Positions 3,001-54,004 of a DNA stretch of 64,000 nucleotides are shown here, one piece after another. The stretch comes from Ministeria vibrans ATCC 50519 (Eukaryota > Protista > Filasterea). The position numbers and the translations under genes were made by a program. A model generated the notes under the pieces. That model worked only from the letters and a program-made list of their open reading frames with translations. It was not told the DNA's origin and made no database searches. Where the stretch lies: the NCBI GenBank assembly GCA_943704425.1, contig CALSCP010001993.1, positions 23,777-87,776 of the forward strand. The letters are read 5' to 3'. Positions within the stretch are counted from its first letter, which is position 1. Each line of letters opens with the position of its first letter.

Positions 3001-6000
3001 TCCATTTTCAGATTGAACGAAATGCTCGCCTTGCGCAAGTGATCCAGAATTTGTGTGGTCACCTTGCCAAAGTTGGTGTTGGCCTGTACAAGCGCGTGCA
3101 GTCGTGGGGACGAAATGGACTGCAGATCGAGATCCACTGCAACCTTGACCGACAGGATTGACCAGATGGTCAATTCGAAGCGGAAGCTCGTTGGCGAGAA
3201 CTTAATGTAAATCGAGTTCCAAAGACCGAGGAACTACAACAAACAGATGATTATTTAAAATTATTAATAATTATTATTATGAATAATATTATAGCCATTC
3301 ATAATTCTTACGTCCTCACCTCTCTCTCTCTCAAACACTATGCTCTCTCTCTCAAACACTATGCTTGCTCTCTCACAGACTTCTCTCAAACACCATGCTT
3401 ACCCTCTCACTCTATGCTTTCTTTACGTTACTCTCTTCCCTCCCCTCTCTCCACTTTGCACTCTCAATCTCCCTCTCATTCTCACCTGAATGGCACCGGC
3501 AACCTCAAGTTCAAGCTTCTTTGGCAGGTCCATATCGAGGTAGAACGAAGGACCCCTGTCTTGCTCAGTGATGGTGCGCACGACGTTGATAACACCGAGC
3601 TTGATGGGACACAGCTTGACATCTATCAGGACGCGCTTGGGAGGGATGCTGATAATGACGTGAGCATCAATCTCACAGCCGAACAGATTAAGCAGCCCCT
3701 TGAGGGAGAAGCCGGCGGGAATATGGACGTTGCCCAGCACAGATGTACGATCGGCAAAGGCAAATGAGACTTGCAGGCCCTTGGGGAAGCCCGTGTCGCG
3801 GATTGGCTTGGGTAATTTGTCGACACTGAACGACGGCACCATCACGTCGAAGACCTTGGCCACCGTGATGGTGCTCAGCGCAAAGTAAAAGTAGTTGTTC
3901 TTGTAGTTGCCCACGTCAACACCCAGTGCCAATTGCATGCTGATTGTCTTGTCGCTGTCGACAAAGCCTGTAGGCGCTGACACATCGTAGGTGCAGGCGT
4001 TGTTGAGACCAAAGCACATACTTGCCTGGAACTCGATCGCCTTCAGTGACACAGGTCCCAGCGCGACCGAAATGCTTCCACCAATATTGGCAATGCTCAA
4101 TGGGCTGATGCCAAAGGGTGAGTGCCATACACCGACGAGGCCAAGCTTCACGCCAATCACGAGCGGCGGGCCAATTTCGAGGTAGAGACCGCCGACAAAC
4201 TTGGGGGCGCCCTTCAGACCGGGCACTGACATCTCACCGCCAAACTCGAGGCGTAACAAGGGCTGTTTGCCAAACGCCAGGGCAAAGTATAAACGCTCGA
4301 TGGTGACAGGTCCCAGTTCGAGGTTAAAGCTCAGCAAGACTTTCACTTCAAGCGCACCGCTGATCTTGCTCAGCTCTAGATCCATGGAACCCTGCAGGAA
4401 GCCCAGGAATTTACAGGCAGCGCCGTGCGTACACGCACCTGTGTCGACGCTGACACGCGTGGCCACAGTGAATCCTTTGGCCCACACCGAGGTCGAGGAT
4501 GATCGCTCAAAAGCCTCGGGGTGCAGCAAATCGACTTCATCAGGAGAGAATTGTCGCGGTGTGCCTGAATTGATGACAAAGCGGAAATTTTGCACGGTAA
4601 ACGCCCCGAGAACACCCTGCACAAGACTGTTGCCTGCGTCACCCGGAAGAATCGCTCCCAAAAGGGTGCCCAAGTTGGCATTGCTCGACATGAACAGCGA
4701 CAACATCAGCGTCTGCTTGGTCGCACCACTTGGCTTCATGATGACGGCGGCAAAGCCAAGTGTCGTCGACGACGAGACGGTAAAGTCACCGCCAAATTGC
4801 ACAATACGCGGCTTGCCCAGCGTGATGCGGATCTGTATCGCGCTCTGAAGCGCACTACCGACACCACGGCGACGGCTGATTGCGCTGGTGGGAAGACCTG
4901 AGCTGATCAAGCTCTGGAAGGCACGTAGCGTTGGACCGCCCTTGGCCAACAAGTAGGCAACGAGGTTGTCACGGTCGAACTCGACCGATTCGGGATCCGG
5001 CTCGAAGTTGAGGCTTCTCCACTTGCTTCCCTTGACCAAGCACTTGGACGCGGATGCTACGCCGCCTGCCGAAAAGATTTCGTCTCCCTCCGTCGACGGT
5101 CCAAAGTGCACGGTACCACCGGCGAGCAGCTCGACAGTCCAGCCACAACATTTGGCCTTGTTGGTACCACTCGGTGGACTGGGCGGTGTTGACACACAGG
5201 GGCGTTTCGCCTTCTTGTCAATGAGGTACTGCCAGCGGGCGTTGAACGTGACGCCCACCTGCAGCTTAGAAAAGGACAGGGTTTCGTCCTCCTCTTCGCC
5301 AATGGCAATGCAACGACCGCCGTTTAGAGCACACTTTGGCTGCGCAATGACGGAGAGTTGGGTGAACTTGAGCGTGTTGATTTGATTGTAGACAGGGTCC
5401 TTGTCCAGAGACTTGGGTCGGCGTTCGTACTGGCCACGAATGTCCGCACCAAGATCAAGCAGGCTCATGTCGCCCAGAGCATCGCTCATTTTGGTGGCAA
5501 TTCCCTTGTCGGAGTCGGTCGAGCCATTGGTGGCGCAGGAGAGAATCTGACCGACCGTGATGATGGCAGCATTTTCCGCGCCGGTTTCCTCGTCGACAGA
5601 GCCATCGGGACGACCTGTCAGAGAAAGCATCACGACCTGGTGCGAATCCTTGTCAATGATGGCGCGCCCTTCAAGGCCCGAGCACTGAAAGTCCATGGAA
5701 GCCGCGAAGTAAAATTCTGGCTTGTGGTCATGCAAGGGTAGCGCGTCGTACTCGGCCTGTGCCTGGGCACACTTGCTGGACGTGGCGCGTGCCTCGCGTG
5801 CCAAAGAAGGCGCACTGTCTAGGTCGTCGTGTCGGGGTTCCTCCTCCTCCGTCTCCTTGGTGACGTGGTAGTTGTTATCGTTGAGAGAGAGGTCAAGAAG
5901 ACTACGACGGCCCGATGGCGGTGAGTCTGATGCTCCGCCAGTCTTCTTTTTCTTCTTGATGGGTGTTGTTGAACGAGGCCCGATTTCAGGATCAAACGGC

Positions 6001-8371
6001 GCCAAAAAGTCGAGGTAGCGCGTCTCGATGAGGGGGCGTGTCTCAATCTCGTTGCTGGTGGGAACCGGTTGATATATGCCCTTGAACGCGGCGCCCGTGT
6101 ACGTGGGCTTGGCGATGATGGAGCCGACGGGCGGTTTCTTCCAGTTGCGTGGGCGCGACGAGTTGTAGTAGCGAGCAAAGCTCAGGGTAAGGTTGGAGAG
6201 GGCAAGGCGATCGTTGAACAACAGCTCGGGTCGGTCGGTGGCCGCATCGAGGAGAAACTCGACGAGGAACATGCGCTTTTTGGGCTTGAGTACACACCCA
6301 TCCATGTTGTGCACAGTGTTGTTGCGGCTTCTCTGAATCAATAGCTTGCGCAGACCAAACGAGTCGGCAATATCCGACTCGAATGGCAACATATTCGACT
6401 GGGAAAAATCCGCAGCAGCCTTGCGGTCGAGCACAGCAAGGAGCGATGCGAGATTTAGTCCGTGACCATCGTAGCCGGCGGCATCTTGAGCCTGTGTAAG
6501 AGTCGAAAACTCGAGCGACAAGCCCCATGCCTTGGCTCCACGACGGCCCATTGCAATAGCCGTCGTCTTGATACCATTGACCATGAGCGAAATGTCGGCG
6601 CGCATGACAAAGTTGAGCTTGAACGGGATCTTCTTGGCGGTACCGCTGCTGGAGGTCGCACGACGCCCCTTCTTCCCGAGCTTCTTGCGATCAAGTTGGA
6701 GTCCCAGGAAGACACCCTCGATGGCAAACGCGTTCTTTTCGGTGTCGTTGAAGCTCCACGACTTGGACGGAAATTGCACAATGATGCCCAGCTGTTCGCA
6801 ACGTTCGTGCGCGTACGACTTGAAGTCAGTGTCGCGCGAGAGGTCAAAGTTTTCCAGACCGGCGTCGTTACTGACGGTCACTTCGCCAAAGGTGACCCAC
6901 CATGTGTAGTTAACGGAACCGATTGCTGTGTGTTTGGTGAGACCACCGTTGATCTTTTCGAGCAGCATGTCGTTGAGCGATTCGATCATCTCGTCAATTT
7001 TTCCATTAGCCTGTTTGACGGCCTGATCACGCGCCAAATCTTGTGCCACTTGACGCTTGCCAAGCGACGTCGGGAGCGAGGACAGCAGTGGCTCGAGCAA
7101 TTCGTCGACAAGACCGCTGAGACCGACGCTGTCGAGGTCGTGGATAAGGCTGTCCCACGAGAGGCCGGCCGGAGCGGTGAGCAACGAGCGCGGGTCAATG
7201 TCGCGCAGGGTCATTGTTAGATCATCATTGTCGTTGTCGTCGATGTTGTTGTTGTCGCCATCGATAGCATCGTCGAGGTCGTCATTTTTGTCGTCGAGGG
7301 AGCGACGACGTGATTGGGAGTTGTCGTTGTTGTTGTCGTCGTCGTGCTCGGGAGGGAGGTGACGGTGCATAGTTTGAACAAAATCGGTTGGCGGCGCGAC
7401 CTTTGGTTGGCCCAACGCAAGGGTCAGGCGTGAGCCACGAAGGCCGGACACTGAGTGAGCATTGTACGTGTTGGCACCGAGACGAATTGCGGTGGCACCG
7501 TTGCATGGATCGGTGCATGGTGCGCCCGCTTTACAGCCGGTACAATCGCGAAAGGCCGGAGGCTGTGAGAGCGACAAAGAACAAGTGGAGCCAATGAAGC
7601 CAGGCGCGCATTTGCAGGTAAATGATTTCACACCGTCGACACAAGTGGCGCCATTGAGGCAGGGCGTTGGCGAGCAGTCGTCAATGTTGGTTTGGCAGTG
7701 AGAGCCGGAGAAGCCAGCAACGCACGAGCATTTGTACGAGGCAACACCGTCGAGGCACGTGCCGCCGTTCTGGCAGGGATCCGACAGGCATTCGTTAGTG
7801 TTTCTTTGGCAGGTGCCGCCCGTGAAGCCCTGGTCACAATTGCAACGGTATCCAGCGCGTCGGCGACGACGGTGCCCGGTGGTGCGATAGCCGTTGCGAG
7901 AGCAGGAGGTGGTGCGGCGTCGTGAGGAGAGGCGATAGGAACGTGTCACAGGCTGATATTCAATGGCGGCGAGCACTTGTGAGGGTTGGTTCTTGAGGGA
8001 GCAGAGGGAAACGGTCGCGTTACCGACGAGTCTTTCAACATTGCCGTACACGAGCAGACGACAAGTACCGTCGTGCGACACACTGAAATGTTCGCACGTT
8101 GACTCGACGTGACATTGGTGAGCACACGTGGCCATCTCGGCGGCGTGGACGCCCTTGAGTGTGTTAGGGACACATGAAAAGGGTAGGTCCGTCAGAGTCG
8201 GCCGAGCAGCCACTAGCGCGGTAAAAAGTACCACGCTCTAAGTAGGAGTGATGGGTGAACATATGTGGTGGGTTACTCTGGTTAGCCATTAGAACAGGCT
8301 GAGAAGAGTTAATAAATAGATTACTTTAAATTTTTTCGACTTACGAGCGAAATAAAGGCGGTTAAGCGCAT
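1..8371 (-). CDS. Giant secreted mosaic protein (>2,600 aa, runs off the window's left edge): signal peptide, PAN/apple, 3 EGF repeats, acidic linker, long beta-strand-rich region, amphipathic helical region, fibronectin type II-like motif, ricin-B-like repeats
   Basis: Exons 8371-8345 (MRLTAFISL|gtaagt), 8237-3486 (the 1603-aa ORF minus its intronic tail) and 3233 to <1. The last exon has no stop when translated by hand, which is why the ORF track lacks it. All joins are GT-AG and phase 0. Spliced N-terminus MRLTAFISLSVVLFTALVAA-RP is a classic signal peptide. EGF: NTNECLSDPCQNGGTCLDGVASYKCSC. PAN: CAHQCHVESTCEHFSV..GTCRL. FN2-like: PCVPFRVGNQRFSGCTTLGRSYEWCAT (about 1690-1770). Confidence 0.85.
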
Positions 8372-9397
8372 TAAATTTGTCTTCAATATGTTGATGCGTT
8401 GATCTATTTTTAGAAAAAAGAGAATTAGAGAAGGGAGGGGCGAGGAGGAGGCGTCTGTAGCAAAAGAGATGGCGCAAGTGTTTCACTGAATCAGATCGAT
8501 ACAATTTTGCCACGAGCGTCGGGTGCGCATGCTGTGGTGTGGCATACACTCGGTTTGAAATTATGAAGACAAAATACTCCCGACGAAGAAGGAAAAGAGG
8601 GAAAACTACAACAAGGACTCGGCGACATCAGACGACTAGCAGATAGAATAAACGGTAGAGAAGAGCAAATGGAACAAAGAAGCGAAAGTGGAGGAGAGCA
8701 AGCTGACTAAAAAATGAGACACTAAAAAACAAACACGGCTAATCTACCGTTAAGAAGAGTATGGGAAGGCCAGCTGAGCACGCAGGGAACTGCTCAATAC
8801 TCTTTCACAATTCACACCAATGTCACGTTGTGATTGGGAGACTGGGAGAAGCTGAGGATGAAGGGGAGAGGTCGTTCGGCTATTCCCGAGGGAGTTGCTT
8901 TTTTTTGTTGTTTTTATGTGGACAGCGACAAAAAAGGAGAAAAAGAGGCCAAGTTCGGAATAGACAATAAGTGCACTTGTGTATCATGCTGTTTTGGTAC
9001 GAAGAAGGAAGTAGTATCACACGCGAGAAACGAGAGAAAAAGCAGAAAAAAAAAGGCACACAAGTTTGGAAGAGGGAGAGAATGCAAGGGCGTGCTGTCT
9101 CAGATGCAGCAATAGTAGGGCTGTAGTCTCACCAGGGTATCGAAGCAAAAGAAAAAAAGAGTGAGAACTGAGTTCAGAGTTACTGAGAACTGAGAGTCTG
9201 AGACGTCAAAGAGTTAACAACAAATGTAGCGGTTCCTCTCTCACCTCCCTGGGCAGCTGGTGGGGGCAGCATGGCGGGTGTGGCCGGTTTCAACAAACAC
9301 ATGAGCCCATCTCCGCCTGAGCGCTGCGTTGCGCGCTCGAGCTGTTCATGGTTGAAAGATTTAAAGCAAGAGTGGGAGTAGTTCCCCCTGTTTTGTT

Positions 9398-10130
9398 TTA
9401 TTCAACATTGGCGCCTTCATGTGTGGAAGCGACAGTCGCATGCGACGTAGAAGACGATGCATTGCCAACGGCATCGACAGGCACATCCGCCACAGGGCTT
9501 GGCGTGCGTTGTCGAGATGGAGAACGAGAGCGTGAGCGAGACGGAGAGCGAGAACGCGTGGACCGACGATGGCGCGGAGGGGAGCGCGAGCGCGAGCGAC
9601 GACGGCTGCGCCCATGATCACGGTCGTGATCGCGGCCACGGTCACCACGATCATGAAAGTGATCGCGATCCACGGGACGTCCACCACCTCGTTCGCCCAT
9701 TGGTCGCTTGTACTCCACTCGCACCTGATACACAGACGGTGGTTAGAAATAATAAAAAAATGCCCAGGAAAATGCGTCGCGTTGCTTACTCTTGCACCAG
9801 TGCCAAAAACATCACGGTTATGAAACATTTCCAGTGCACGCGTGGCACTGCGGGGGTCTTCATAGCGCACGTTGCCTTCGCCCTTGGGTGACCCATCGGG
9901 GCGCGTGCGTAGCATGGCGTTGGGCTCGCCAGTGCGAGTGTTGAGCGCAATCTTTCCGGCACGCGAGAACTCACGGAGCACCTGATCGAGCGTGGTCGCA
10001 TAAGAGAGACCAAATATCATAACGGTATCGCGTGGGTACGGCCCCTCTTGTCCTCCCTGATCAAATCGAGCTCCGCCACGTGAATCGAAACCTTCTTCGC
10101 CACCGAACCCTCTGGCGAAGAAGAAGAAGA

Positions 10131-10193
<63 letters not shown>

Positions 10194-11346
10194 GAGACAA
10201 GGAAGTTTTGTTGGTGTTTCGCTTCGAGTGTGAAAAGAGATGCACGCAATTGATGTCGAATTCATGCACAGAGCGCGCTCAATCTGTTCAGGCGGCACTG
10301 ACATCGCTCCACAAGTTGGCTTCTCACGTACAGAAGAACTGCTCAGGCAACCTCCATTGATGCAATACCAAAAAAAAATTGCTCAAGCAACACATACACA
10401 CACATACACATAGCACTCAGTCACACACATCCTATGCCAAAGAAATTGCTCAGGCAACACACGCACATACACGCCGACCGAGTTGTTCAGGCAAAGCGCA
10501 CACACCACCACCACCACCACTACCAACACCAAAGGAATTGTATACGCAACATGCACCACCAAAAGATGGGTTCAGGCAACACGCACACACCAACCACCAC
10601 CATCGCCAGCACCATAGGAGCAGCTCTCAGGCAACATCACAAGAACTGCTCCGGCAACACGCACAAAACACGCACAAAGAGTCCTCCTTTTCCTTTGCTC
10701 ATTTTTCTTCCTCACCTCTGTCCCCCACCGTCACGATCAGCATATCCTCCACTTGTTCTCGGCTTTGGCGTTCTGCACTTGTTGCAAATGTCACGCTTGG
10801 CAAAGTTGTGGTTGTTGCAGTCGGGACAGTCCCAGTCACCAGGTCGCCGTGTGCGAGACGGGAACTCGCCGCGAGGAGGGAAGTCATCTTGACGAAAACC
10901 ACCCTCCCTGTCACGCCTCTCAGGACCCGGACCGCCATACTGGGAGTTGCCACTGTAACTCGGCGGCCTTCCTCGGTAGCCACCACCACTATCGCCACTG
11001 CCATAATAATCGCCGCCGCCGCCGCCACCACCGCCGCCGCCACTGCCACCGCCTCCGTTGCCATACGATGCGACAGTTTGCGTGGTCACAATGGGGCGCT
11101 CATTGCCGTAGACGGGGCCCGGCGCAGGAGCGCTACGCGAGTAGTCTCCACCGCGACGAATATCGTCTCGACGATCGTACTCTTGATACGACCCTTCGTA
11201 CGCACCGCCGCCACCACCACCACCACCACTACCTCCTGCAACAGAGCCGCCTCCCGTATAGGAGGTTGATGCAGGGGCCATTGTAGGCGGCGGAGGAGGA
11301 GGGGGCGCACGAAGGAGCTCTTCGGGCTTTTGCCAACGCGACTCAT
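9398..11346 (-). CDS. FET (FUS/EWS/TAF15)-like RNA-binding protein: G/Y-rich region, RanBP2-type zinc finger, FET-type RRM, RS-rich tail; 5' end missing
   Basis: Exons 11346-10716, 10111-9790 and 9724-9398 splice in frame through GT-AG introns. ZnF: RRPGDWDCPDCNNHNFAKRDICNKCRTPKP. RRM: DTVMIFGL...GKIALNTRTGEP...PKGEGNVRYEDPRSATRALEMFHN. Tail: RSRSRSP. The first visible exon follows an acceptor (ttttttcag) and begins DESRWQKPEEL, which looks like the end of a WW domain. Confidence 0.8.
10283..10660 (-). repeat. Intronic array of 8-9 degenerate copies of a motif of about 20 nt (sense consensus GUGUUGCCUGAGCAAUUUCUU) with variable spacers
   Basis: Plus-strand copies near 10334 (aagaactgctcaggcaac), 10374, 10440, 10479, 10532, 10563, 10618 and 10641, plus a weak copy near 10283. 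Spacers are CA/CAC-rich. Confidence 0.85.
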
Positions 11347-11399
11347 CTGAAAAAAGGGCAGACAATCAATTTGTTGACAGGATTCCGATAATGGTTGGT

Positions 11400-11480
11400 A
11401 GAGAAAGAAGAAAAGAGAAGAGAAGAGAGAAGAGAAGAGAGAAGAGAAGAGAGAGAGAGAGAGAGAGAAGTGTGTGTGTG

Positions 11481-11567
<87 letters not shown>

Positions 11568-11575
11568 ATGTGTGT
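11400..11575. repeat. Compound (AGAAG/GA)n plus (TG)n microsatellite
   Basis: Directly visible; the TG dinucleotide run is about 95 bp. Confidence 0.95.
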
Positions 11576-11697
11576 GTACATGTGTGCTTATATTTAGTGT
11601 GTGCTCATGTGTTTGTTCATGATAACTATTTTGAGTCACTTGATGGAACAATTTATGCAATTTAATAATAATTAACTATTTATGGTTGCATGTGTAG

Positions 11698-12274
11698 GAC
11701 AAGGACCGTCAGTCGACCAAAGTGTGCTCTGGCTCAACCAACCCCGAGTTTAAGTTCCGCAAGCAGTTTACAGTGGATCCATGCACGGAAGGCTTTTTAG
11801 GCTACCTGCAGAGCAATGCGCTTGTTGTGGAGGTGTGGGGAAAGCAGGTAAGCAATGACGAAACAATGACTTGATGATAAAGAGTAATATTAATATATGA
11901 GCTCCTGGGGTATGTATGTGTGATTGACAGGGAGATGGGTATGGGCTTGGAGGAGCGCAGAATGGAGGGTATGCAGGTGGAGGAGTGGGTGCGGGCAAGG
12001 CACGACAGCACAAGATGGACCATTTGGACGAGCAGATGCTGGAGATTGAGAAGGAGGCGGATCTGATCAAGAAGAACCAGCTTCTGATCAACGTAACGTC
12101 GGAGCAAAACGATACAATACAGATGCTCAAAGTGGAGAATGAGGAGCTGGCTAAGCAGACGCAGGATCTGGCGTCGCGCATGGAGCGCCTGCAAACGGGC
12201 AATGTAACGGGTCTGAAGCGCATGGCTTCCACTCTGCCCCACGACGATACTTACCAGTACGCAACAAATTTGTG

Positions 12275-12347
<73 letters not shown>

Positions 12348-12789
12348 GGGGATTAATAATAATAAGGGATAGAGAGATCTAGAGATGAGAGAGGGAGCGA
12401 TTCGGGAGAGAAGCAAATTAACCAAAATTATTATTCTGATCCCGTCTTAACAATAATGTGTCCCTATTTCCACTCTAGTCAACTCGCAGATGCGTTTGAG
12501 AAGTTTTTACAGGGAGCGCAGTCGACCAAACAGGACATTCGGGCGTGTTTTGAGTCCAACCAGAAAGTGCCAAGAGGTAATGTTGAAAACTATGACTTGT
12601 CAATCACCGTCACCCACTAAATTCAATGTTCCTTTTTCTCCCCCTGTAATTTACTTAGACGATATGAAGCATCTCAAGGCTCGATTTGAAGAACACAAAG
12701 CTCTTGTATCACAGGTTGAGAAGTTGATGGTCAGAGGTCTCACTGAGCTCAGAGATGAAATTAGCGAACTGGCAAAAATTAAAAATTGA
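11698..12789 (+). CDS. C-terminal fragment of a kinesin-3-like (KIF28/KLP-6-type) protein: end of a C2-like domain plus coiled coil; 5' part absent
   Basis: The exon after the acceptor at 11697 reads DKDRQSTKVCSGSTNPEFKFRKQFTVDPCTEGFLGYLQSNALVVEVWGKQ|gtaagc, which resembles the TxNPxF...FLxYL...VEVWGxQ end of KLP-6/KIF28 C2 domains. In-frame exons follow (about 11931-12256, 12479-12576, 12659-12789) and encode coiled coil. Confidence 0.6.
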
Positions 12790-12914
12790 ACACACGTCTT
12801 TATTTGGCACTCTCTATCTGTTTAAACCTATAATAATTCTTTTTAACACTATCGGATCTTTTAAAGTGAGTCACATTCAATAATCCAAACAAATACACAC
12901 TCGTGTAATCAAAC

Positions 12915-16421: not shown

Positions 16422-17331
16422 ATGAATGTGGACGCGCTGTCGTTTCATGCCGACGGAGACGCCGCAGCGTACCACATGGTAGACGATGAAACGATGGCTG
16501 CGGCTGCGGCTGCGGAGCGGAAAGCGAGGCAAATCGAGCAGCAGCATCAAGTGAACATGAACGCCAATGGGCGGCAGAGGGTCAGCGGCCTGTACAAGAC
16601 GGAGCTGTGCCACTCGTGGGAGGAGACCAGCGCATGCAAGTACAAGGACAAGTGCCAGTTTGCGCATGGCCACGACGAGCTGCGCCGCGTCTCACGCCAC
16701 CCCAAGTACAAGACGCAGCTGTGTCGGACGTTCCACACGACCGGCCAGTGTCCCTATGGCCAGCGCTGCCACTTTGTGCACACCCTCGAAGAACTGCGCC
16801 CCTCCTCCGACTCCAGCGTTAACGATGCCGCCGACGACCTCAACCGTGCCCCAAGCGCCGGCGAGCCTGTGTCGACGTCACCCGAGCGAGCGTCGTCGAC
16901 TTCGTTGCCACCGGCCGGGTCGATGTCTCCTTCGCACGCTTCGGCAGTTGATCGCCCCAGTACGGCTGTCACTCACGCCATGGCTGGTGCAATGGCCACG
17001 GCTGCCGCTGCCGCTACTAGTACCACCGCTGCTCAGCAGAAGGGTCACTCGATGCGTCGTCGTTCCACCTCCACACCGCCCGTCACTTTTCCTTTTCCCG
17101 ACTTCACCTCCTCAGTTGCCATCACTCCTCCCAGTCTTTTTGCCGCTGCCGCAGCCGCCTCCAACTTTTACGGCAGTCATTCACCCCATGAAGTCTATCA
17201 GCTACTACTCGCTCAGGCTCAACAGCAACAAAAGCACCACCACCAGGCGGCACTCGCAGCAGTCGTCGCCCACCAGCAGCAGCAGCAGTTTCACATGCAG
17301 CGACACCAGGGCCAACAACAACAGCAGCAGC

Positions 17332-17422
<91 letters not shown>

Positions 17423-17462
17423 GCAGCAGCAGCAGCAGCAGCAACATCATCATTACCATCAA

Positions 17463-17493
<31 letters not shown>

Positions 17494-18632
17494 CGCATCA
17501 TCATCATCATCATCCTCATAATGAGCAGCATCAGCATATGGCGACACCATCGGCACAACGTGCCTTTGCTGCCTTCCCACCCAATTCGCATGCCGACTGG
17601 TCTACCTCGTCCCATAGTAACGCTCACATGAACCCGAATCCTTCCCCCGAGTTTACTTTCGTCTCGAATTCGTCGTCCACCAATACGGCCACAGATCGAG
17701 ACACCGCCACGTGCAACTCTGGCTCGTCACGCCAATCACCAACTTACCCGACTGCACTCTATCCCTCGTCATTTGTCAGTGCTTCCTCTGTCTCCAGTAC
17801 TCCTGCAAGTCCCCTGGCCAGTTCATCCGACACACTGCAACAGCAGCAGCAACAGCACGATCAACAGGCTCCGTCGCCGTACAGTCATCACCATCACCAC
17901 CACGTGCATCAACAACGACAACAACATCAGCATCTTCCCGAACGACCCAGCTCGCAGACTGCCTGGCCATCCATATCATCGAGCGACGGTATCACTGCCT
18001 TGTTCACCGCCTACACGGGTCTCGCTCGGCCGTCCACTGCCAGTCCTTCCTTGGCAACCACATCAACGTCGACACAACATGCCGACGCGGGCGACGTTCC
18101 CTCCCCCTCATCGTTGCTTAATCACACGCTTGTCTCTGGCACCGGTCCGTCATCTCTCTTGCGAAGCGTCGATCAGCCCACATCCTTCAGCGCTGCCTCT
18201 TTTGACGAGGACGATGTTGACCAGGGGGACGACGCTCGCTTTGCCGTTGAAATAGCTACGTCGGTCATCCACGACCCGCACCACGACGCAGATCTTAACA
18301 GCGACACACACGTCGACGAGACGCTCTTCTCGTCGTCACCTCGCGGTTCCTCAGATACGACATCATCCAGCACGCACACTAGTCCGTCCGGCGCGTCCAC
18401 CATGTCATCCAACGCTCCTTCCCATTCCAACCCCATTCTTCCTCCTCAGGCACCTTCTTCCTCCTCTTCACTCCTTCCCTCATCCTCACACAACCCATTC
18501 CTCTGGGACTCCTTCAACGACACCACCGCATCTTCCGACGCATCTCCTCTGCTCTCACGCCTTCTCCCTCTTATCAAACGAGATCCGTCTTCAACGCACT
18601 GCGATACTCGCGACGGCTCTCTTTCCCCTTAG
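16422..18632 (+). CDS. ZFP36: Tristetraprolin/TIS11-family tandem CCCH zinc-finger mRNA-decay protein with polyQ
   Basis: LYKTELC-x8-C-x5-C-x3-H and KYKTQLC-x8-C-x5-C-x3-H fingers with the canonical spacer; single exon. Confidence 0.92.
17313..17444 (+). repeat. Coding (CAA/CAG)n repeat encoding 44 consecutive Gln
   Basis: 132 nt of uninterrupted CAA/CAG codons in frame with the ZFP36-like CDS. Confidence 0.95.
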
Positions 18633-26864: not shown

Positions 26865-29032
26865 ATGAAACGAACAAAGTCCAGCGACGCCGAGGAAGGC
26901 CCTTGCGAAGAGGCAGCGACGAAGAAGGCCAAAGGGGATGAAGAAGGTACAGCAAGCGCGTGGGGGAACGCGTCGCTTGACGGTTCTCTCTCTTCCCTCT
27001 CTCTCTGTCTCTCTCTTCCGCCCAGTTTGGTCGACCCCTGTCGAAAATGTCGCTGTCATGTCGTTTCGATCGCCCAAGGGGAGCGATGCGGTGCTGGCGG
27101 TCGATCTGGATGGCACTATCATCGAACCGGCGAGCGGCAAGAAGTGAGACTGAGCGCAAAAACCGTTTCACACACACACACACAAACACGTCTCACTGTG
27201 TAGGTTTGCGACGGGCGCCAACGACTGGAAGCTGCTCTCGCCGGATGTCCAGAAGAAAATACAGGCCCTGGTGCCTTCCACACAGCGACTTGTGATCATT
27301 TCTAATCAGCTTGGTAGTCAACGCGTAAGGATGTTATTTTAAAGCTGTCTCACGCCAATGCTTAGGGGTCTCCAAAGGCAAGAAGACGCTTGCCGAGCTC
27401 AAGACTATGGTAGGTGGCGTTGCACGTCGGTTGGGTGTTCCGATGCTATTCATTGCCGGTTAGAACACACATACACACTTGTGAGAGGAGACAGAGAGAG
27501 AGAGTGTGTGTGTACTAATGTGGACTCCTGTTTATATTTTAGCATTGGCGGAAGGAATTCACCGGAAACCAGCCATGGGAATGTTTGACTTGCTACAGGA
27601 CCAGCTCAACGACGGCATCAAGATTGATTGCGTAACAGCCATAGAAAATACCCTGGGCCAGTCAGTCACTAAAATTGTTTTTCTTTTTTGTACGAAGTCG
27701 AAGAGTGTCTACGTGGGCGATGCGGCTGGTCGCGCAGCCCAATGGGATGGGAACAAGAAGACCAAGAAGGACTTCTCTGACTCGGACCGCAAGTTTGCCA
27801 TCAACGCCGGTCTTCCCTTTCTCACGCCCGAAGAATTCTTTCACAACAAACCCAAAGCGCCGTACAAAGAAGGGGAATAATCAGTGCAACTCATTTAAAG
27901 TTTTTGTTCTTTTTCTCCAACTGTAGGTTTACTCTCTCTGGTGTGAATCCGCGTGATTTTTCGCGCAATGCGCCTCTTTTGTTCCCAGAGACAGCACAGC
28001 TTGAAAAAAGCACTCCAGAAGTACCCCACGAGAAAGTATACGAGACACTGACTCAGTGATTCCTTCCCCCTCTATTGGTACTCTTTGTGTGTGTGTGTGT
28101 GTGTGTGTGTGTTGTAGATGATTATGGTGGTGGGTCTGCCAGGGAGTGGCAAGGACACCTTCGCACGCAAGCACTTTCCCAGTAACACTTCACACAAGTA
28201 ACATACTCAATCCTCGCTCTCATGTTCTGTCTCTCTTTGTCTCTGTCTCTCTTTGGGGTTTAGGCTATTCTGTCGTCAACAGAGACACTCTCAAAACATG
28301 GCAAAAATGCATCAAAGAGAGCACGTCGCTTGTGGCTGAGGGGCGTTCCGTTGCAGTTACCAACACAGACGTCGATGTGGCCTCCCGCGCGCGCTACGTT
28401 GAAGTTGCTAGGAGCGCGAACATCCCCATTCGGTACGAGGTGATGGATAGAGAGATAAAGTGTGAGAGAAACATAAAGTGCTAGGATTGAGAGAGAGAGG
28501 GAGAGGAGAGGAGGGAGAAACAAAGTGATAGAGAGAGAGAAACAAAATGATAGAAACAAAGTGATAGAGAAAGAGAGACAAAGTGATTGAGAGAAAAACA
28601 AAGTGATAGAAACAAAGTGATAGAGAGCGAAGGAAATCGTGATAGAGAGCGAAGGAAATCAAATTGACTGAGGAGAGAGAGAAGCAATGCGACAGAGAAA
28701 CAAACTGATTTTATTGTTTGCAAAGGTGCTTTTACTTTCTGCCAAATTTGGAGCTGTCGAGACATCTTAATGCGGTGCGAATGAAGCAGGTGGCTGTGGG
28801 GGCAGCCCCCGCACATGACAAGGTTCCTGACATGGTCTTCTACTCCATGCGCAACAAGTGGACGGTCCCCACGACTGCAGAAGTACGGGTCAATGACACA
28901 CCCATAATAATTTTTTCTCTAATTGGTCCTCTGTCATAGGGCTTTTCTGAGATAGTGCGGGTTAATTTTGTGCCTTCCTTTGGTGGTCCTAGCGCAGCGC
29001 AAGATGAAAAGACGTTCAATGAACTCACTTGA
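26865..29032 (+). CDS. PNKP: Bifunctional polynucleotide 3'-phosphatase/5'-kinase, without an FHA domain
   Basis: HAD motif AVDLDGTII, ISNQ, RKPAMGM, YVGDAAGR and KDFSDSDRKFAIN. Kinase motifs VGLPGSGK, VNRDTL and SRARY. Many short introns; stop TGA at 29030-29032. Confidence 0.9.
28515..28660 (+). repeat. Intronic minisatellite, about 7 copies of AACAAAGTGATAGA(GA)n
   Basis: Directly visible in a PNKP intron; the same unit occurs inverted at about 63820-63945. Confidence 0.85.
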
Positions 29033-49240: not shown

Positions 49241-52200
49241 GTGAGCTTGAAAACAAATTTCCTTTGCATCGCGACCTCTCCCATGTTGCGCAGCGTGACG
49301 GTGACGCGCAGTGGCGTAGCTTGACGCGCCCGTCGACACAACTCCTCTCCAATATCCAGATCTCGCTGGTACAGCTCAATCGCGCGGTTGAACTGTCCCA
49401 TGGACTTGTACACAGTAGCAAGATTACTCACTGCAGTCGCCACCTACCACCAAAAAAGAAAAAAAAAACAAAACCAAAAAGGAAAATTAATAATTATTAT
49501 ACACAAGGACGTTTCAACATTATACCTCCCAGTGCGTTCGGCCAAGAGTCTTCTCGCGAATGGCGAGCGACTGCTTGTGCAGCTCCAGTGCGCGATCCAG
49601 GTTGCCCAGGTTGCGCTCCAGAATCGCCATGTTGTTCAGTGTCTTGCTAATTTTGATGCTTTCCACCCCATTTTCTGCAATCTGCACCTCAAGATTCCGC
49701 TCGTACAGCGGTAACGCTTTCAAGTGCTATTCACAACAACACACCAAAAACAATAAAAGTACAATAACAAACAAAATTAATATTAATTGCAACAAAAGAG
49801 TTATCTGAATGTTTCAAGCCTTATATTTTTTACCTCTCCTGCTCGCCAGTAGACAAAGGCAAGTTCTTCAAGAGCAGGCCCAACAGCGGGATGACGCTGA
49901 CCCAACTCGCTGGTGAGAATGGCGAGAGAACGGTCCAGGAAGAAGCAAGCCTTGTTGAGGTACCCGCCGCATACAAGCAGACGACCTACGTCGGCATTGC
50001 GCGCCGCAAGCTCTAGCGGTGACATCTTCGCCTGCCGTGCATCGTCAAGAGACTTGCGATAAAACATGGCCATCACAGAGGATGTGGTTGGCTCGGGATC
50101 ACACGCACGCCTACCAATCACACAAATAATAATTTTTAAAAAAGCAATAACAAAAATTAATATTTATAATGAGTGAAAAGTCAATATTGACAGTCATTGT
50201 TTGTTTGCTCTGGTTCTCTCTCGGTACATACCAGCATCGAAGAAGGTCGGCCGGCGACACATTTCTGAGGTGCTTGAGAACGCGCAACCGCGAGAGACAC
50301 GAGCGAAGAGTGTCGCGTCCCTCGGCGCCCGTCGTCTGGCCTAGAAGCCAGGGGAGCTCGTCGGCCGCACGCGACACGGTCACCTGGCCGCCCGAGTTGC
50401 GTTCGACGCGCGAGTCCATCACCTGCAATTGGCTCTGGAAATAGCTACACAGCGTCCGTTGCGTCACGGCCATCTGCTCTGCGACCGACGTCTCGGTGTT
50501 GCCTCCCATATACTTGGTCATGGCGACCGCCTTGAGTTGCTCGTGCCAGAAACTCAGCACGCCGCCTTGCTCCATAAGGAACGGCTCGAGCGACAGCAAA
50601 ATCGGCACTATCACCTCCGACGGCAGTTTAGAGATTTCTGCAATCTCGCGTGGCACCAGGCCGTAGCGCGCACTCACCAACAGACGCACGACAGTGGCAA
50701 AGGCACCACGACGGCTGTCGCCAGCCTCACGTGCGTGCAGGTGCTCAAGATGGCCCAAAATCGCGAAGAACAAGTGACGCGTGTCTTGCGCGTGAAGCAA
50801 CACGGCAACACGACTCTCAATCGACGCAAACAAATCGTGAAGCGGCGCGTTGTCACGCACCTCAGGGAGCGCACGTTCAAAGTAGAGAGGCGCACAAAGT
50901 TCCTCAATCATGAGACGCAGGTAGAGTGGTGAGCCGGAGCCGGGCGCCGAAACAAGGTCACGCATGATATTGCGGGGGAAGGCGAGTCGTTCGCGCTCTT
51001 GCAAGTGATGTGCAACCAGCTCGCGTCGTTCGTCCATGCTCAGCTCGGGAATCTCATGCGCCTTCCAGCCATTGCGCACAATCTGCTTGGCAAACGCCGA
51101 GCCCTTCGTCAGGCCAACAATCACTCGCAGACGACGCGACGCACCCGGTGTCGCCTTCTCCCAACTCCCCGGATCCGGCAACCTAAAAACACACGAGGGA
51201 AGACGCACAAAGAAAAAAAAATATTAATGAAAGCATTAATAAGAATTGGAACGATACAATCATCTTTTTTGAAACGAAAATGCATCAAAATGCAATGCAG
51301 TATACCATCGAACGTTGTGCGCCTCGGCGACCTTTTCAATGGCATCGAGTGAGTCGACAATGAGATAAACACGAGGGCCACCTCGTCGACCAGCAATGAG
51401 GCGGAGGCACTCAGCAAAGCGACGCGTGATGGTGCGCCAACTCGTGAGCTGTTCGCCCACGTCGCTACCAAGGACATGCTGGAGACAGAGAGTGAAACGG
51501 CGCAACATGGACATGAGAGAGGAGCCAGTGACGGGTCCGCTGACACCGTGATAGAGTACAACGGTGCGGCGGTCAGGTGACTCGCGCAGATGCACGGCCA
51601 AATTAGCGAGTAACGTGGATTTGCCAAGGCCCTTGGGCGACGTCACCACCACACCACCCGTGCTGCGTTCGATCGACTCCATCACGGCATCGAGACGTGC
51701 GCGTTTTCCAACAAAACACTGCGTGCGCGACGTCATAAACGCCTCGAGATTGCGCCACTCCGGGTCGTCCTCGAGACGCGTTTCGTTGAGCGACGCATGG
51801 TCACGTGGCACAATTTCGGACACAAAGCGAATAAGAGCATTGCTGAGCATGCGAGCACCGTCGAGCGTCGAACGAAACTGCAGGTGATCCACTGTCGCAG
51901 TGGAGCCTCGAGATGTCTCGCGACACAACTGTTTGAGTGCCGCCAACTTCTCCACGGCACTCGTCTGCTTGCGGTCGCCGGCGGCCGAAAAAGCATCGTC
52001 GCGACGCGACGCATTACCCGTGGTGCCAAGCGATTCGCTCTGCTCGAGAATGACCGAGCGGCGCAGCGTAGGCGTGTTCAGCGAGCCACAACGCGTCTCA
52101 ATCTCCAGCATGGATCGATCGCGCATTCGGCCGAGCCAGGCCCAGCGACTTTCACTGATGGCATCGTCAAGATTCTTGTCAAAGACGGCGCCACTGACGT

Positions 52201-54004
52201 CGTTGCTCGACCAGCCGTAGTGGTCACCGATAAACGACACATACAGATCGCATCGTTCGATCTCGGTGAGGGCGGAACGCAGCACGTGTACATTGCGTGG
52301 ATTAGAGCCGGGGTCTTCGCCAAAATCCATGGCACACACCGACAAGTGTAGGCGATGCTCTTCGCAAAAGAGGCGAATGAGTGGCAGGTAGTCATCCATG
52401 AACATTTTGCGCACAGCACCCATGCGCGAGTCGTCGGTCGATAGGTAGAGACGAAGTGTTGACCAGGGGAGCATGCGACCCGGCTCGGGCTCGCGACGTT
52501 GCATGGACGAGCGCTCCTTCTTCACCTCGGGCACCGGCTTGAACGTCGCATACACGGCCGTGTCAAAGTTGGCCTGACCACTCTGGTTTACCAGATAGAT
52601 GTCCTCTTCCTGCTGCATCGCCGAGGCGGCCGCACTGCCACCCTTCTTCATCTTGTACGCATGGACGGCAGCCTCAATGTCGTTGCTGCCCGCGCCGGCA
52701 CCCATCTCGCCATTTTTGGACGCATCAAAGTCGTGCAGCTTGAGGTGGAGTGCGGCGCGCTCTTCGAGAAGCGTCGTCATGTCCGCGCTCGGCGCTTGCG
52801 ACGCGCCCGGTTTCATACTGTTACGGCGCGACGCAGGATCGAGCTGCTCGTAAATGACCTCGCACGACTCACTGTAGGCGTAGGAGGTAGTGGAGAGGCG
52901 CGATCCGGGAGCCACCATAGTATTGGGGGTATCGGGATCGTACAAATCGGTGTACTTGTGGTTGGCCGGAGACGACGCGGCGGGCGGGGTGTTCAAGTTA
53001 GGACGACGACGCGCCTGGAAGATGCCATAGCCACCGCTCGGAGCGGAGATGGGCAGGGGCGTGCCACCTGGCTGGTAGAACGCCGAGTGTTCATCGGGCG
53101 AGTTGTCTGGCTTGCGAAGTGGTGTCGTCGATTTGGGCATGGGTGGTTTGGGGGGAGGAGCATCGCGTGACGACGACGACGCGTCGGCAACCGGATCATA
53201 GATTCCGCTGGCCCGCGCGCCATTCTTGGCATACTGACCGCGACGCGATGACGACGGAAGTGGAGGAACCTCGTCTTGGGCTGCATCGCCACCACGACGG
53301 GGCACGGGAGGTGGGGCTTCTCCAGCGTTCTGACGTGCCTCTGCGACAGTTTCATAGTCGGGAATGGTCGCTGATGGAGGCAAAATGGATCGTCGCGTGG
53401 GCGGCGCGGGCGCTTCGTTGGGATTAGGAGTGGCATCGGGGGCTTCGGGGAGCGGCGCATAGTCGTAGAGATTCGATGAGTTAGTGGTCGTCGACGACGA
53501 CGCCGCTGCCGCGCGCGTTCCTGGAACCGGGGGTGGGGCGTCGCTGTTGAAAGCATCATCGTAATCATCCTCGTCGTCATCATCATCAAACGTTGTGCGT
53601 CCTTCGTCATCGTCGTCGTCAGCAGCAGCGGCAGCGGCGGGGGATTGTTGCACCATTCCCAACGATTCGTACAGTTCCGACTCGCCGCCACTCTCGCGTG
53701 CTGTCGAGCTACGCGCCGAGGAAGTTGCCGAAAGACTCGAGGCAGTTGACATACGCTGGGGCACTGGAGGCGGCTCGTCGGCGGATGTTCGAGGTACCGG
53801 ACGAGCGCGACGACTGTGACTCGACTCCTTGGTACGATCAAAGCCAAGTCGATCGTACGCATCTTCGGGAGCCGAACTGCTCCCGCTGTCCTCGCCATCG
53901 CCCCACTCCTCCTCATCGGAGCGTGGAGGCAAGTAGTAAGGATTCTATTGACAGGGGAGGGAGGAGTGTGTCAGACACAAAGAAGGTTTGAGATATACCA
54001 AAAA

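What the first reader, a model, noticed from the sequence alone, without database searches (positions are those of the whole stretch)
10283..10660. Hairpin plus GGU array in the intron of a FUS/TAF15-like gene: candidate autoregulatory RNA element
Seen: the 604-nt intron carries 8-9 copies of a motif whose sense core UUGC-CUGA-GCAA folds into a 4-5 bp stem with a tetraloop. Several variants keep the stem (UUGC-UUGA-GCAA, UUGC-CGGA-GCAG, UUG-CGUAUA-CAA) while others break it. Spacers vary in length and include GGUGGUGGU tracts (10501-10520, 10588-10602), so this is not a simple tandem repeat. Established: FUS binds RNA in a bipartite way (RRM on a stem-loop, RanBP2 finger on GGU) and regulates its own pre-mRNA through intronic binding. 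Inference: this is a multivalent binding array for the host protein controlling intron retention or NMD, which would be an unusually explicit feedback element in a non-animal lineage.
Basis: partly seen in the sequence, partly recalled or inferred. Interest (0 to 1): 0.78.

Follow-up and report, generated by a model that had tools for sequence, protein, structure and literature searches.

The report
Repeated motif in a retained intron
A gene for a FUS-like RNA-binding protein, likely in a single-celled relative of animals, has a 604-base intron with nine decayed copies of one short motif; public transcript contigs hold this intron both spliced and unspliced, and the copies likely act as unfolded protein-binding sites that slow splicing rather than as the hairpins first proposed.

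Summary
The array is real: 7 close and 2 loose copies of GUUGCCUGARC in a 604-nt GT-AG intron (10715-10112, minus strand), far above shuffles. Contigs of four guessed-RNA runs (four studies) reproduce it at 99% identity or more; three show the intron spliced out, all four also hold intron sequence, and one bridges the donor. Retention puts a stop at the donor, ahead of the RRM.

The hairpin reading fails: only 4 of 9 copies keep the 4-bp stem, covariation equals shuffles, the region folds no better than shuffles (z -0.06), and GGU runs cluster at the broken-stem copies. What is kept is a linear core inside a decayed tandem unit.

The host is not a canonical FET protein: WW-ZnF-RRM-RS order, several FUS RNA-contact residues changed, RRM outside the core FET clade. 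No orthologous intron could be obtained, so conservation is untested.

Best reading (0.40): a single-stranded binding array that favours unproductive retention, possibly self-feedback. Rivals: neutral minisatellite in a long weak intron (0.33); RFX-like DNA half-sites (0.10). The logic is known from FUS and SR genes; the explicit array and lineage would be new.

The parts
10716..11346 (-). Exon: C-terminal half of a WW-like domain, Pro run, Gly-rich region, RanBP2 zinc finger
   Evidence: ORF 10712-11365; both boundaries seen as loose ends in laid contigs
10760..10846 (-). RanBP2-type zinc finger (PF00641, 31 bits, cut-off 27)
10112..10715 (-). 604-nt GT-AG intron, donor GTGAGG, no YTRAY branch-type motif, long TC/TTC tract before the acceptor; in-frame stop at 10714-10712 if retained
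10646..10657 (-). Copy 1, TTGCCGGAGCAG (four pairs possible; predicted to pair instead with copy 2)
10623..10634 (-). Copy 2, TTGCCTGAGAGC (stem broken)
10568..10579 (-). Copy 3, TTGCCTGAACCC (stem broken)
10538..10549 (-). Copy 4, loose, TTGCGTATACAA (three pairs, +1.8 kcal/mol)
10483..10494 (-). Copy 5, TTGCCTGAACAA (three pairs, +1.8 kcal/mol)
10446..10457 (-). Copy 6, TTGCCTGAGCAA (consensus; the only hairpin with appreciable predicted probability, 0.43)
10379..10390 (-). Copy 7, TTGCTTGAGCAA (four pairs possible)
10339..10350 (-). Copy 8, TTGCCTGAGCAG (four pairs possible)
10284..10295 (-). Copy 9, loose, CCGCCTGAACAG (stem broken)
10477..10613 (-). GGU-rich middle of the array: 15 of the intron's 17 GGU, mostly as (GGU)n runs
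10134..10190 (-). (TC)n microsatellite forming the polypyrimidine tract
9790..10111 (-). Exon with FET/Tat-SF1-type RRM (PF00076 at about 9802-10023)
9725..9789 (-). 65-nt intron, spliced
   Evidence: joint in 3 of 4 laid runs
9398..9724 (-). Last exon: RD/RS-rich tail, stop at 9400-9398 overlapping an AATAAA
   Evidence: contigs end at 9378-9410

Best explanation
The intron carries a decayed tandem array of a linear GU-rich motif (core GUUGCCUGARC, nine copies) and is found both spliced and unspliced in transcript contigs; the copies likely act as single-stranded binding sites for an RNA-binding protein that slows splicing of this long, weakly signalled intron, so that part of the transcripts keep a stop ahead of the RRM and would be detained or degraded. 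Shown: the array, the splice sites, intron sequence in contigs of four runs, the stop, the lack of structural support. Inferred: that the unspliced form is a mature regulated isoform, that a protein binds the array, and that binding changes splicing. The host protein is the likeliest single candidate binder (its finger is of the GGU-binding type and the array holds all 17 GGU of the intron), roughly even odds against another factor such as an ELAV/CELF/MBNL-type protein.
For: Seven close copies against at most 3 in 1000 shuffles, all on the sense strand. The 5' eight bases are kept at 65 of 72 positions while positions 9-12 vary regardless of pairing; a neutral uniform-decay simulation matched to the mean conservation gives this in 1.5% of runs (14% at a lower rate), a weak hint of constraint on the linear core. 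Intron sequence lies in contigs of 4 of 4 laid runs from four studies; X17 bridges the donor with over 280 letters on each side, the other three reach 30 letters into the exon; three of the runs also show the spliced junction, and three show the 65-nt intron spliced. Retention gives a stop after 210 codons of the exon frame, before RRM and RS tail, with a further intron downstream. The finger aligns with those of FUS and ZRANB2 through D-W, N-F-A-K-R and C-N. FUS autoregulates through retained introns 6 and 7, and Ewsr1 and Taf15 have FUS-responsive retained introns (PMC7337901, passages).
Against: No orthologous intron was found, so conservation is untested; 80 distant FET-type loci show no such array (at most 2 matches in 520 nt). 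Length (604 nt against 65-220 for five other confirmed or guessed introns), donor GTGAGG and the missing YTRAY could cause retention alone; in Capsaspora 11.6% of introns reach 20% retention and long weak ones are favoured in cysts (PMC3870316, passages). Another decayed tandem array of similar copy number lies at 28.5 kb of the same window. Shared flanks show that the copies arose by duplication, which explains similarity without selection. No binding data.
Confidence: 0.4

Rival explanations
1. Neutral decayed minisatellite: a 30-60-nt unit was duplicated locally and its GGU/GU spacers slipped; the intron is retained only because it is long and weakly signalled.
For: Flanks are shared as well as cores; the genome is full of microsatellites and has another degenerate array at 28515-28660; 3 of 245 windows of 520 nt reach 7 or more copies of some 9-mer family; fold z -0.06; no YTRAY and a non-consensus donor; simulations with frequent indels reproduce the fall-off beside the core in up to 19% of runs; retention of long weak introns is common in a filasterean (PMC3870316, passages).
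Against: The core is kept across spacers of 23-67 nt that have diverged strongly (P 0.015 in the matched uniform model); the host is a splicing-factor-like gene, a class known for unproductive splicing (PMC4379411, abstract).
Confidence: 0.33
2. DNA-level array of transcription-factor sites: the near-palindrome GTTGCC-TG-AGCAAT resembles an RFX X-box, one strict half-site plus one loose half, which would explain the hairpin look and the tolerated G/A change at position 9.
For: RFX monomer site GTTRCY and X-box GTNRCC-N0-3-RGYAAC with one stricter half, in opisthokonts (10.1101/2022.11.11.515474, passages); 6 of 9 copies carry GTTGCY, 1 fits the 14-mer with one mismatch and 4 more with two.
Against: No copy is a perfect X-box and 4 of 9 have four mismatches; two-mismatch sites occur at 1.5 per kb in the window; the choanoflagellate motif is GTTGYCA where these copies have T at the seventh place, and such sites cluster at transcription starts, whereas this array lies behind at least two exons; all copies face one way; an RFX gene in this organism could not be checked (no genome).
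Confidence: 0.1
3. One reading: hairpins with CUGA loops bound by the host RRM and neighbouring GGU bound by its finger, as in FUS.
For: Four copies can form a 4-5 bp stem and do so in short context; GGU is enriched; protein binding could stabilise weak hairpins; the long alpha1-beta2 loop of the FET RRM is present.
Against: 73% of cells paired, covariation 0.133 vs 0.152 in shuffles, inner C-G pair broken in 4 of 9; hairpin probability at most 0.03 in 8 of 9; GGU clusters at broken copies; FUS contacts N284, F288 and K315 are R, M and T here (residues from PMC7733473; alignment); the loop CUGA has no YNY at its 3' side.
Confidence: 0.08
4. The intron cover comes from something other than retention: an antisense RNA, a transcript ending inside the intron, or plain pre-mRNA of a well-expressed gene; the array then belongs to that RNA or to nothing.
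For: Contigs are unstranded; no contig was seen crossing the acceptor into the intron; three contigs end at 10196-10212 or just inside the TC tract.
Against: No AATAAA or ATTAAA in the intron although the gene's own 3' end has one; the X11 contig runs on into the TC tract, where assemblies break; no internal acceptor has a pyrimidine tract as good as the used one.
Confidence: 0.09

Closest known systems
FUS autoregulation through retained introns 6 and 7 (PMC7337901; passages seen)
   Same: FET-type RNA-binding gene; long intron upstream of the RRM-coding exons (FUS position recalled) present unspliced; GU/UG-rich content; unproductive isoform.
   Different: FUS introns are conserved as long blocks and the feedback was shown by mutants and CLIP; here there is a discrete nine-copy motif, no conservation data and no binding data; host has finger before RRM, a WW-like start and an RS tail.
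Bipartite RNA recognition by FUS, RRM on a YNY stem-loop and finger on GGU (PMC7733473; passages; Loughlin 2019 seen only as cited there)
   Same: Finger of the same class; RRM with the long alpha1-beta2 loop; GGU-rich target.
   Different: Stems not supported, no YNY in the CUGA loop, N284/F288/K315 equivalents changed, domain order reversed.
Unproductive splicing of SR and other splicing-factor genes (PMC4379411; abstract) and fust-1 exon-skipping loop in C. elegans (10.1101/2021.03.22.436400; abstract)
   Same: Splicing-factor-like host with an isoform that cannot make the full protein; such events arise repeatedly and turn over.
   Different: Those rest on conserved poison exons or exon skipping; no poison exon was seen here (no internal joint in 4 runs).
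T/G-rich motif in stage-specific retained introns of Capsaspora, tentatively ELAV-bound (PMC3870316; passages)
   Same: Unicellular holozoan setting, T/G-rich retained intron.
   Different: That motif is low-complexity and spread over many genes; this one has a defined core and, within the window, is confined to one intron.
RFX X-box (10.1101/2022.11.11.515474; passages)
   Same: GTTGCY half-site followed by a looser inverted half.
   Different: Intronic, single orientation, no perfect site, seventh base T rather than A.

Membership tests
FET proteins (FUS/EWSR1/TAF15) | RRM with long alpha1-beta2 loop and PKG[ED]..V.[YF][ED]DP | tested here: met
   Top six solved-structure matches are EWS, TAF15, FUS RRMs, E 5e-11 to 2e-8; alignment A1
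FET proteins (FUS/EWSR1/TAF15) | RanBP2 finger of the RNA-binding class | tested here: met
   PF00641 above cut-off; aligns with FUS and ZRANB2 fingers; which residues touch RNA is recalled
FET proteins (FUS/EWSR1/TAF15) | Order RRM then finger | tested here: not met
   Finger exon precedes the RRM exon; finger follows the RRM in 31 of 31 fetched loci with a finger and 21 of 22 proteins with one. A finger-first order in plant TAF15b is recalled, not confirmed
FET proteins (FUS/EWSR1/TAF15) | SYGQ-rich N-terminus, RGG boxes, C-terminal PY signal | tested here: not met
   In the 425 residues readable here: 2 [SG]Y[SG], 3 RGG, 25 RS/SR, no terminal PY; the first exon(s) are missing from the window, so the extreme N-terminus is unseen
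FET proteins (FUS/EWSR1/TAF15) | RRM groups inside the FET clade | tested here: inconclusive
   Quick tree, 91 rows, 84 columns: inside a FET plus Tat-SF1-like group (support 89) but outside the 55-row core FET group (support 90); no starred set holds it; careful search unfinished
Structured RNA hairpin array | Stem kept across copies with compensatory change | tested here: not met
   covariation 0.133 vs 0.152; 277 of 500 shuffles as high
Structured RNA hairpin array | Hairpins favoured in the folding ensemble | tested here: not met
Autoregulatory retained intron | Unspliced isoform exists beside the spliced one | tested here: inconclusive
Autoregulatory retained intron | Retention removes the functional protein | tested here: met
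   Stop at the donor, before RRM and RS tail
Autoregulatory retained intron | Host protein binds the intron and retention follows host level | not testable with these tools
   needs CLIP/EMSA and over-expression or knock-down
Autoregulatory retained intron | Element conserved in orthologues | tested here: inconclusive
   No close orthologue found; absent from 80 distant loci, many of them probably transcripts
RFX X-box array | GTNRCC-N0-3-RGYAAC match | tested here: inconclusive
   0 perfect, 1 with one mismatch, 4 with two, 4 with four; 6 of 9 GTTGCY half-sites
Known Rfam family (snoRNA, miRNA, cis-element) | Match to a covariance model | tested here: not met
   Three matches in 9300-11700, all far below gathering scores and none on the array

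The most novel reading that the evidence does not exclude
A divergent FET-type splicing factor with WW-finger-RRM-RS architecture in a unicellular relative of animals throttles itself through nine discrete copies of its own RNA recognition word in a retained intron: FET feedback by intron retention would then predate animals, and the array would spell out the altered specificity (UUGCCUGA plus GGU, single-stranded) of an RRM that has lost FUS's aromatic contacts.
Probability: 0.2. Interest if true: 0.7.

Novelty: new variant of a known kind. Interest (0 to 1): 0.42.

Why it matters
Self-limiting splicing of RNA-binding-protein genes is well known in animals, plants and fungi, and FUS does it through retained introns, but the elements are usually long conserved blocks whose working parts are hard to name. 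A nine-copy word in one intron would be an unusually legible, directly mutable case, in a lineage that informs on what the ancestors of animals could already do. If the neutral reading holds, it is an ordinary decayed repeat in a poorly spliced intron.

Tried and rejected
No whole genome is held, so the genome-wide motif search was limited to the 64-kb window. No RNA holder listed: none of the 24 runs is on record as RNA; the four laid are guessed RNA. Contig depths cannot give a retention level and are not used as evidence (intron vs spliced-side figures: X4 43.7 vs 459-584, X11 31.3 vs 15-56, X17 7.9 vs 5-9.5, X19 2.3-3.1 vs 2.7-4.4). Parts without cover, which prove nothing alone: the first 44 nt of the upstream intron, the inside of the 65-nt intron and the stretch 8425-9324 have none in 4 of 4 runs; the last was the silent-stretch control for DNA; assemblers drop short side paths (own knowledge), so the two intron controls are biased towards absence. 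No DNA run was laid, so strain variation in the array is unknown (one G>T in a spacer at 10560 in X11). Homologue searches with the RRM exon and with the finger found nothing in the word-indexed collection or by single protein in metagenome contigs; the full HMMER scan gave 102 hits, none closer than about 40% over the domain and none with a WW pattern. A two-copy DNA pattern in viral contigs gave 21 loci, many with 27-nt periodicity; not read further. Coding origin (the core reads L-P-E-Q and several changes are synonymous): rejected because the copies fall in all three frames and are flanked by stops; 10 of 19 changes at third positions is weak. Box C/D snoRNAs from the CUGA words: no Rfam support, a C-box-like word precedes only copy 2. 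Branch-point decoys: no CTRAY in the intron, CUGAR fits poorly. Poison exon: no joint inside the intron in 4 runs. Earlier-finding look-ups by place, sequence and FUS words were blank. Paper searches that found no description of this element; bioRxiv supplements were closed and none was read.

Full report
Gene model. On the minus strand an exon at 11346-10716 encodes the end of a WW-like domain, a Gly-rich stretch and a RanBP2 finger; a 604-nt GT-AG intron follows (10715-10112), then an RRM exon (10111-9790), a 65-nt intron and an RD/RS-rich last exon ending at 9398. Contigs of four guessed-RNA runs from four studies confirm the junctions: loose ends at 10716 and 10113 in 3 of 4, the 65-nt joint in 3 of 4, and a shared loose end at 11346 in 4 of 4. 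That last loose end reads as the first half of a WW domain and is not in the window, so the window is probably misjoined in the GA/GT microsatellites at 11400-11577. The array itself is not an assembly artefact: contigs match it at 99% or more.

Host protein. The RRM's best solved relatives are EWS, TAF15 and FUS and the finger aligns with those of FUS and ZRANB2. But the finger precedes the RRM, the tail is RS-rich without a terminal PY, the FUS contacts N284, F288 and K315 named in PMC7733473 (passages) are R, M and T while T326 is kept and K316 is R (alignment), and a quick tree puts the RRM beside, not inside, the core FET group without firm support. None of 102 HMMER hits has a WW pattern and 21 of 22 with a finger carry it after the RRM. 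It is best called FET-like, not a FUS/TAF15 orthologue. A DnaJ gene of the window has its highest identities (55-60%) with unicellular holozoans such as Capsaspora, so a non-animal holozoan is likely; the species was not determined.

The array. Nine copies lie between 10284 and 10658. Seven match TTGCCTGAR with at most one mismatch; shuffles give 0.33 on average and at most 3 in 1000. All face the sense direction, and no other cluster of this motif exists in the window. Flanks are shared too (GUGYGUG before, UUYUUUGG after), so the array arose by local duplication of a longer unit with slippage of GGU and GU runs. Of 245 windows of 520 nt, three reach seven or more copies of some 9-mer family: this one, a coding CAA/CAT run and a tandem repeat at 28.5 kb.

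Hairpin test. Four of nine copies keep four pairs, each worth about -1 kcal/mol; five have positive energy. In the whole intron the proposed pairs have probability 0.03 or less in eight copies and 0.43 in one; with a 60-nt span limit all are 0.03 or less. The region folds no better than shuffles (z -0.06). Across copies 73% of cells pair, the inner C-G pair is broken in four by the same G-to-A change, and covariation is 0.133 against 0.152 in shuffles. Copies 1 and 2 are predicted to pair with each other (-20.1 kcal/mol). Changes fall mostly on the 3' arm (12 of 19) while the first eight bases are kept at 65 of 72 positions. GGU is enriched (17 vs 10.5, P 0.005), yet copies with intact stems have 0, 1, 2 and 2 GGU within 30 nt, and broken ones 4, 6, 8, 7 and 0. 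The kept feature is a linear word, not a stem. Whether it is kept by selection is only hinted at: P 0.015 in a matched uniform-decay model, 0.14 at a lower rate, and 0.002-0.19 for the fall-off beside the core when indels are allowed; the copies were chosen by their cores, which biases all of these.

Retention. All four laid runs hold intron sequence: X4 10196-10745, X11 10195-10745 and on into the TC tract, X17 10420-10999, X19 10212-10493 and 10660-10745. Only X17 bridges the donor by the tool's 31-letter rule; the others reach 30 letters into the exon, as expected where spliced and unspliced paths meet in an assembly graph (own knowledge). X4, X11 and X17 show the 65-nt intron spliced, X4, X11 and X19 the 604-nt one. 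Contigs give neither strand nor level. Retention places a stop at the donor, after the finger and before the RRM. No joint inside the intron suggests a poison exon, and the intron has no AATAAA. The intron is long for this window, has donor GTGAGG and no YTRAY, unlike four of five other confirmed or guessed introns (three of those five are my own unverified calls), so it may be retained for plain reasons, as reported for long weak introns in Capsaspora, where a T/G-rich motif also marks one class of retained introns (PMC3870316, passages; PMC6142364, passages).

Conservation. No close orthologue was reachable. Of 131 FET-type loci found in metagenome contigs the tool kept 80; none has more than two motif matches in 520 nt, and matches are as common antisense (53) as sense (62). 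These are distant genes, many probably transcripts, so this shows only that the array is not a general FET feature. Rfam has no match on the array.

A DNA reading. The near-palindrome resembles an RFX site: GTTRCY half-site, X-box GTNRCC-N0-3-RGYAAC with one stricter half (10.1101/2022.11.11.515474, passages). Six copies carry GTTGCY; one fits the 14-mer with one mismatch, four with two, four with four. This would explain the asymmetry, but position, single orientation and the seventh base argue against it.

Mechanism and odds. Most likely (0.40) the array is a set of single-stranded binding sites that favours unproductive retention; the host is the best single candidate binder, giving about 0.2 for true self-feedback. 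A neutral decayed minisatellite in a weak intron is close behind (0.33); RFX-like DNA sites 0.10; non-retention sources of the cover 0.09; the hairpin-plus-GGU model 0.08.

Comparison. It would work like FUS introns 6/7 (PMC7337901, passages), the fust-1 loop (10.1101/2021.03.22.436400, abstract) and unproductive splicing of SR genes (PMC4379411, abstract). It is not filed as a canonical FET gene or as a hairpin array, since defining features were tested and not met. Nine paper searches listed no description of this element; PMC7154859 (passages) did not give the domain order of plant TAF15b. Verdict: a real, expressed, unexplained repeat array in a splicing-factor-like gene; known logic, possibly new wiring; interest 0.42.

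Noticed in passing
window 11400-11577: Probable assembly misjoin in the GA/GT microsatellites: the upstream WW-coding exon seen as a loose end in 4 of 4 runs is absent from the window, and the plus-strand gene beyond starts in mid-protein.
   Followed up: partly
window 11698-12790 (+): Fragment with a C2-like exon (weak PF11618, E 0.0013) and coiled-coil exons; resembles the C-terminal part of a kinesin-3 (recalled), with no motor domain upstream in the window.
   Followed up: partly
window 9398-11346 (-): Domain order WW-finger-RRM-RS was not found in any of 102 protein hits or 80 loci; may be a lineage-specific splicing factor.
   Followed up: partly
window 9378-9402 (-): AATAAA overlaps the stop codon and contigs end 0-20 nt past it, suggesting a very short 3' UTR.
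   Followed up: partly
window 10295-10657 (-): Six of eight start-to-start spacings (55, 55, 37, 67, 40, 55) are 1 modulo 3, and 55 occurs three times; probably a trace of duplication plus triplet slippage.
   Followed up: no
window 3426-8398 (-): 1570-codon single-exon ORF with two EGF domains near the start and a long unannotated remainder; a 107-nt intron at 8238-8344 is spliced in X4.
   Followed up: no
window 16422-18629 (+): Tandem CCCH zinc-finger protein of the tristetraprolin type with a very long poly-Gln run.
   Followed up: no
window 28515-28660: Another degenerate tandem array (14/22/56-nt periods) in a GA-rich stretch.
   Followed up: no
window 51263-53752 (-): STAND/NACHT-like NTPase with DUF4062, all Pfam scores below cut-off.
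   Followed up: no
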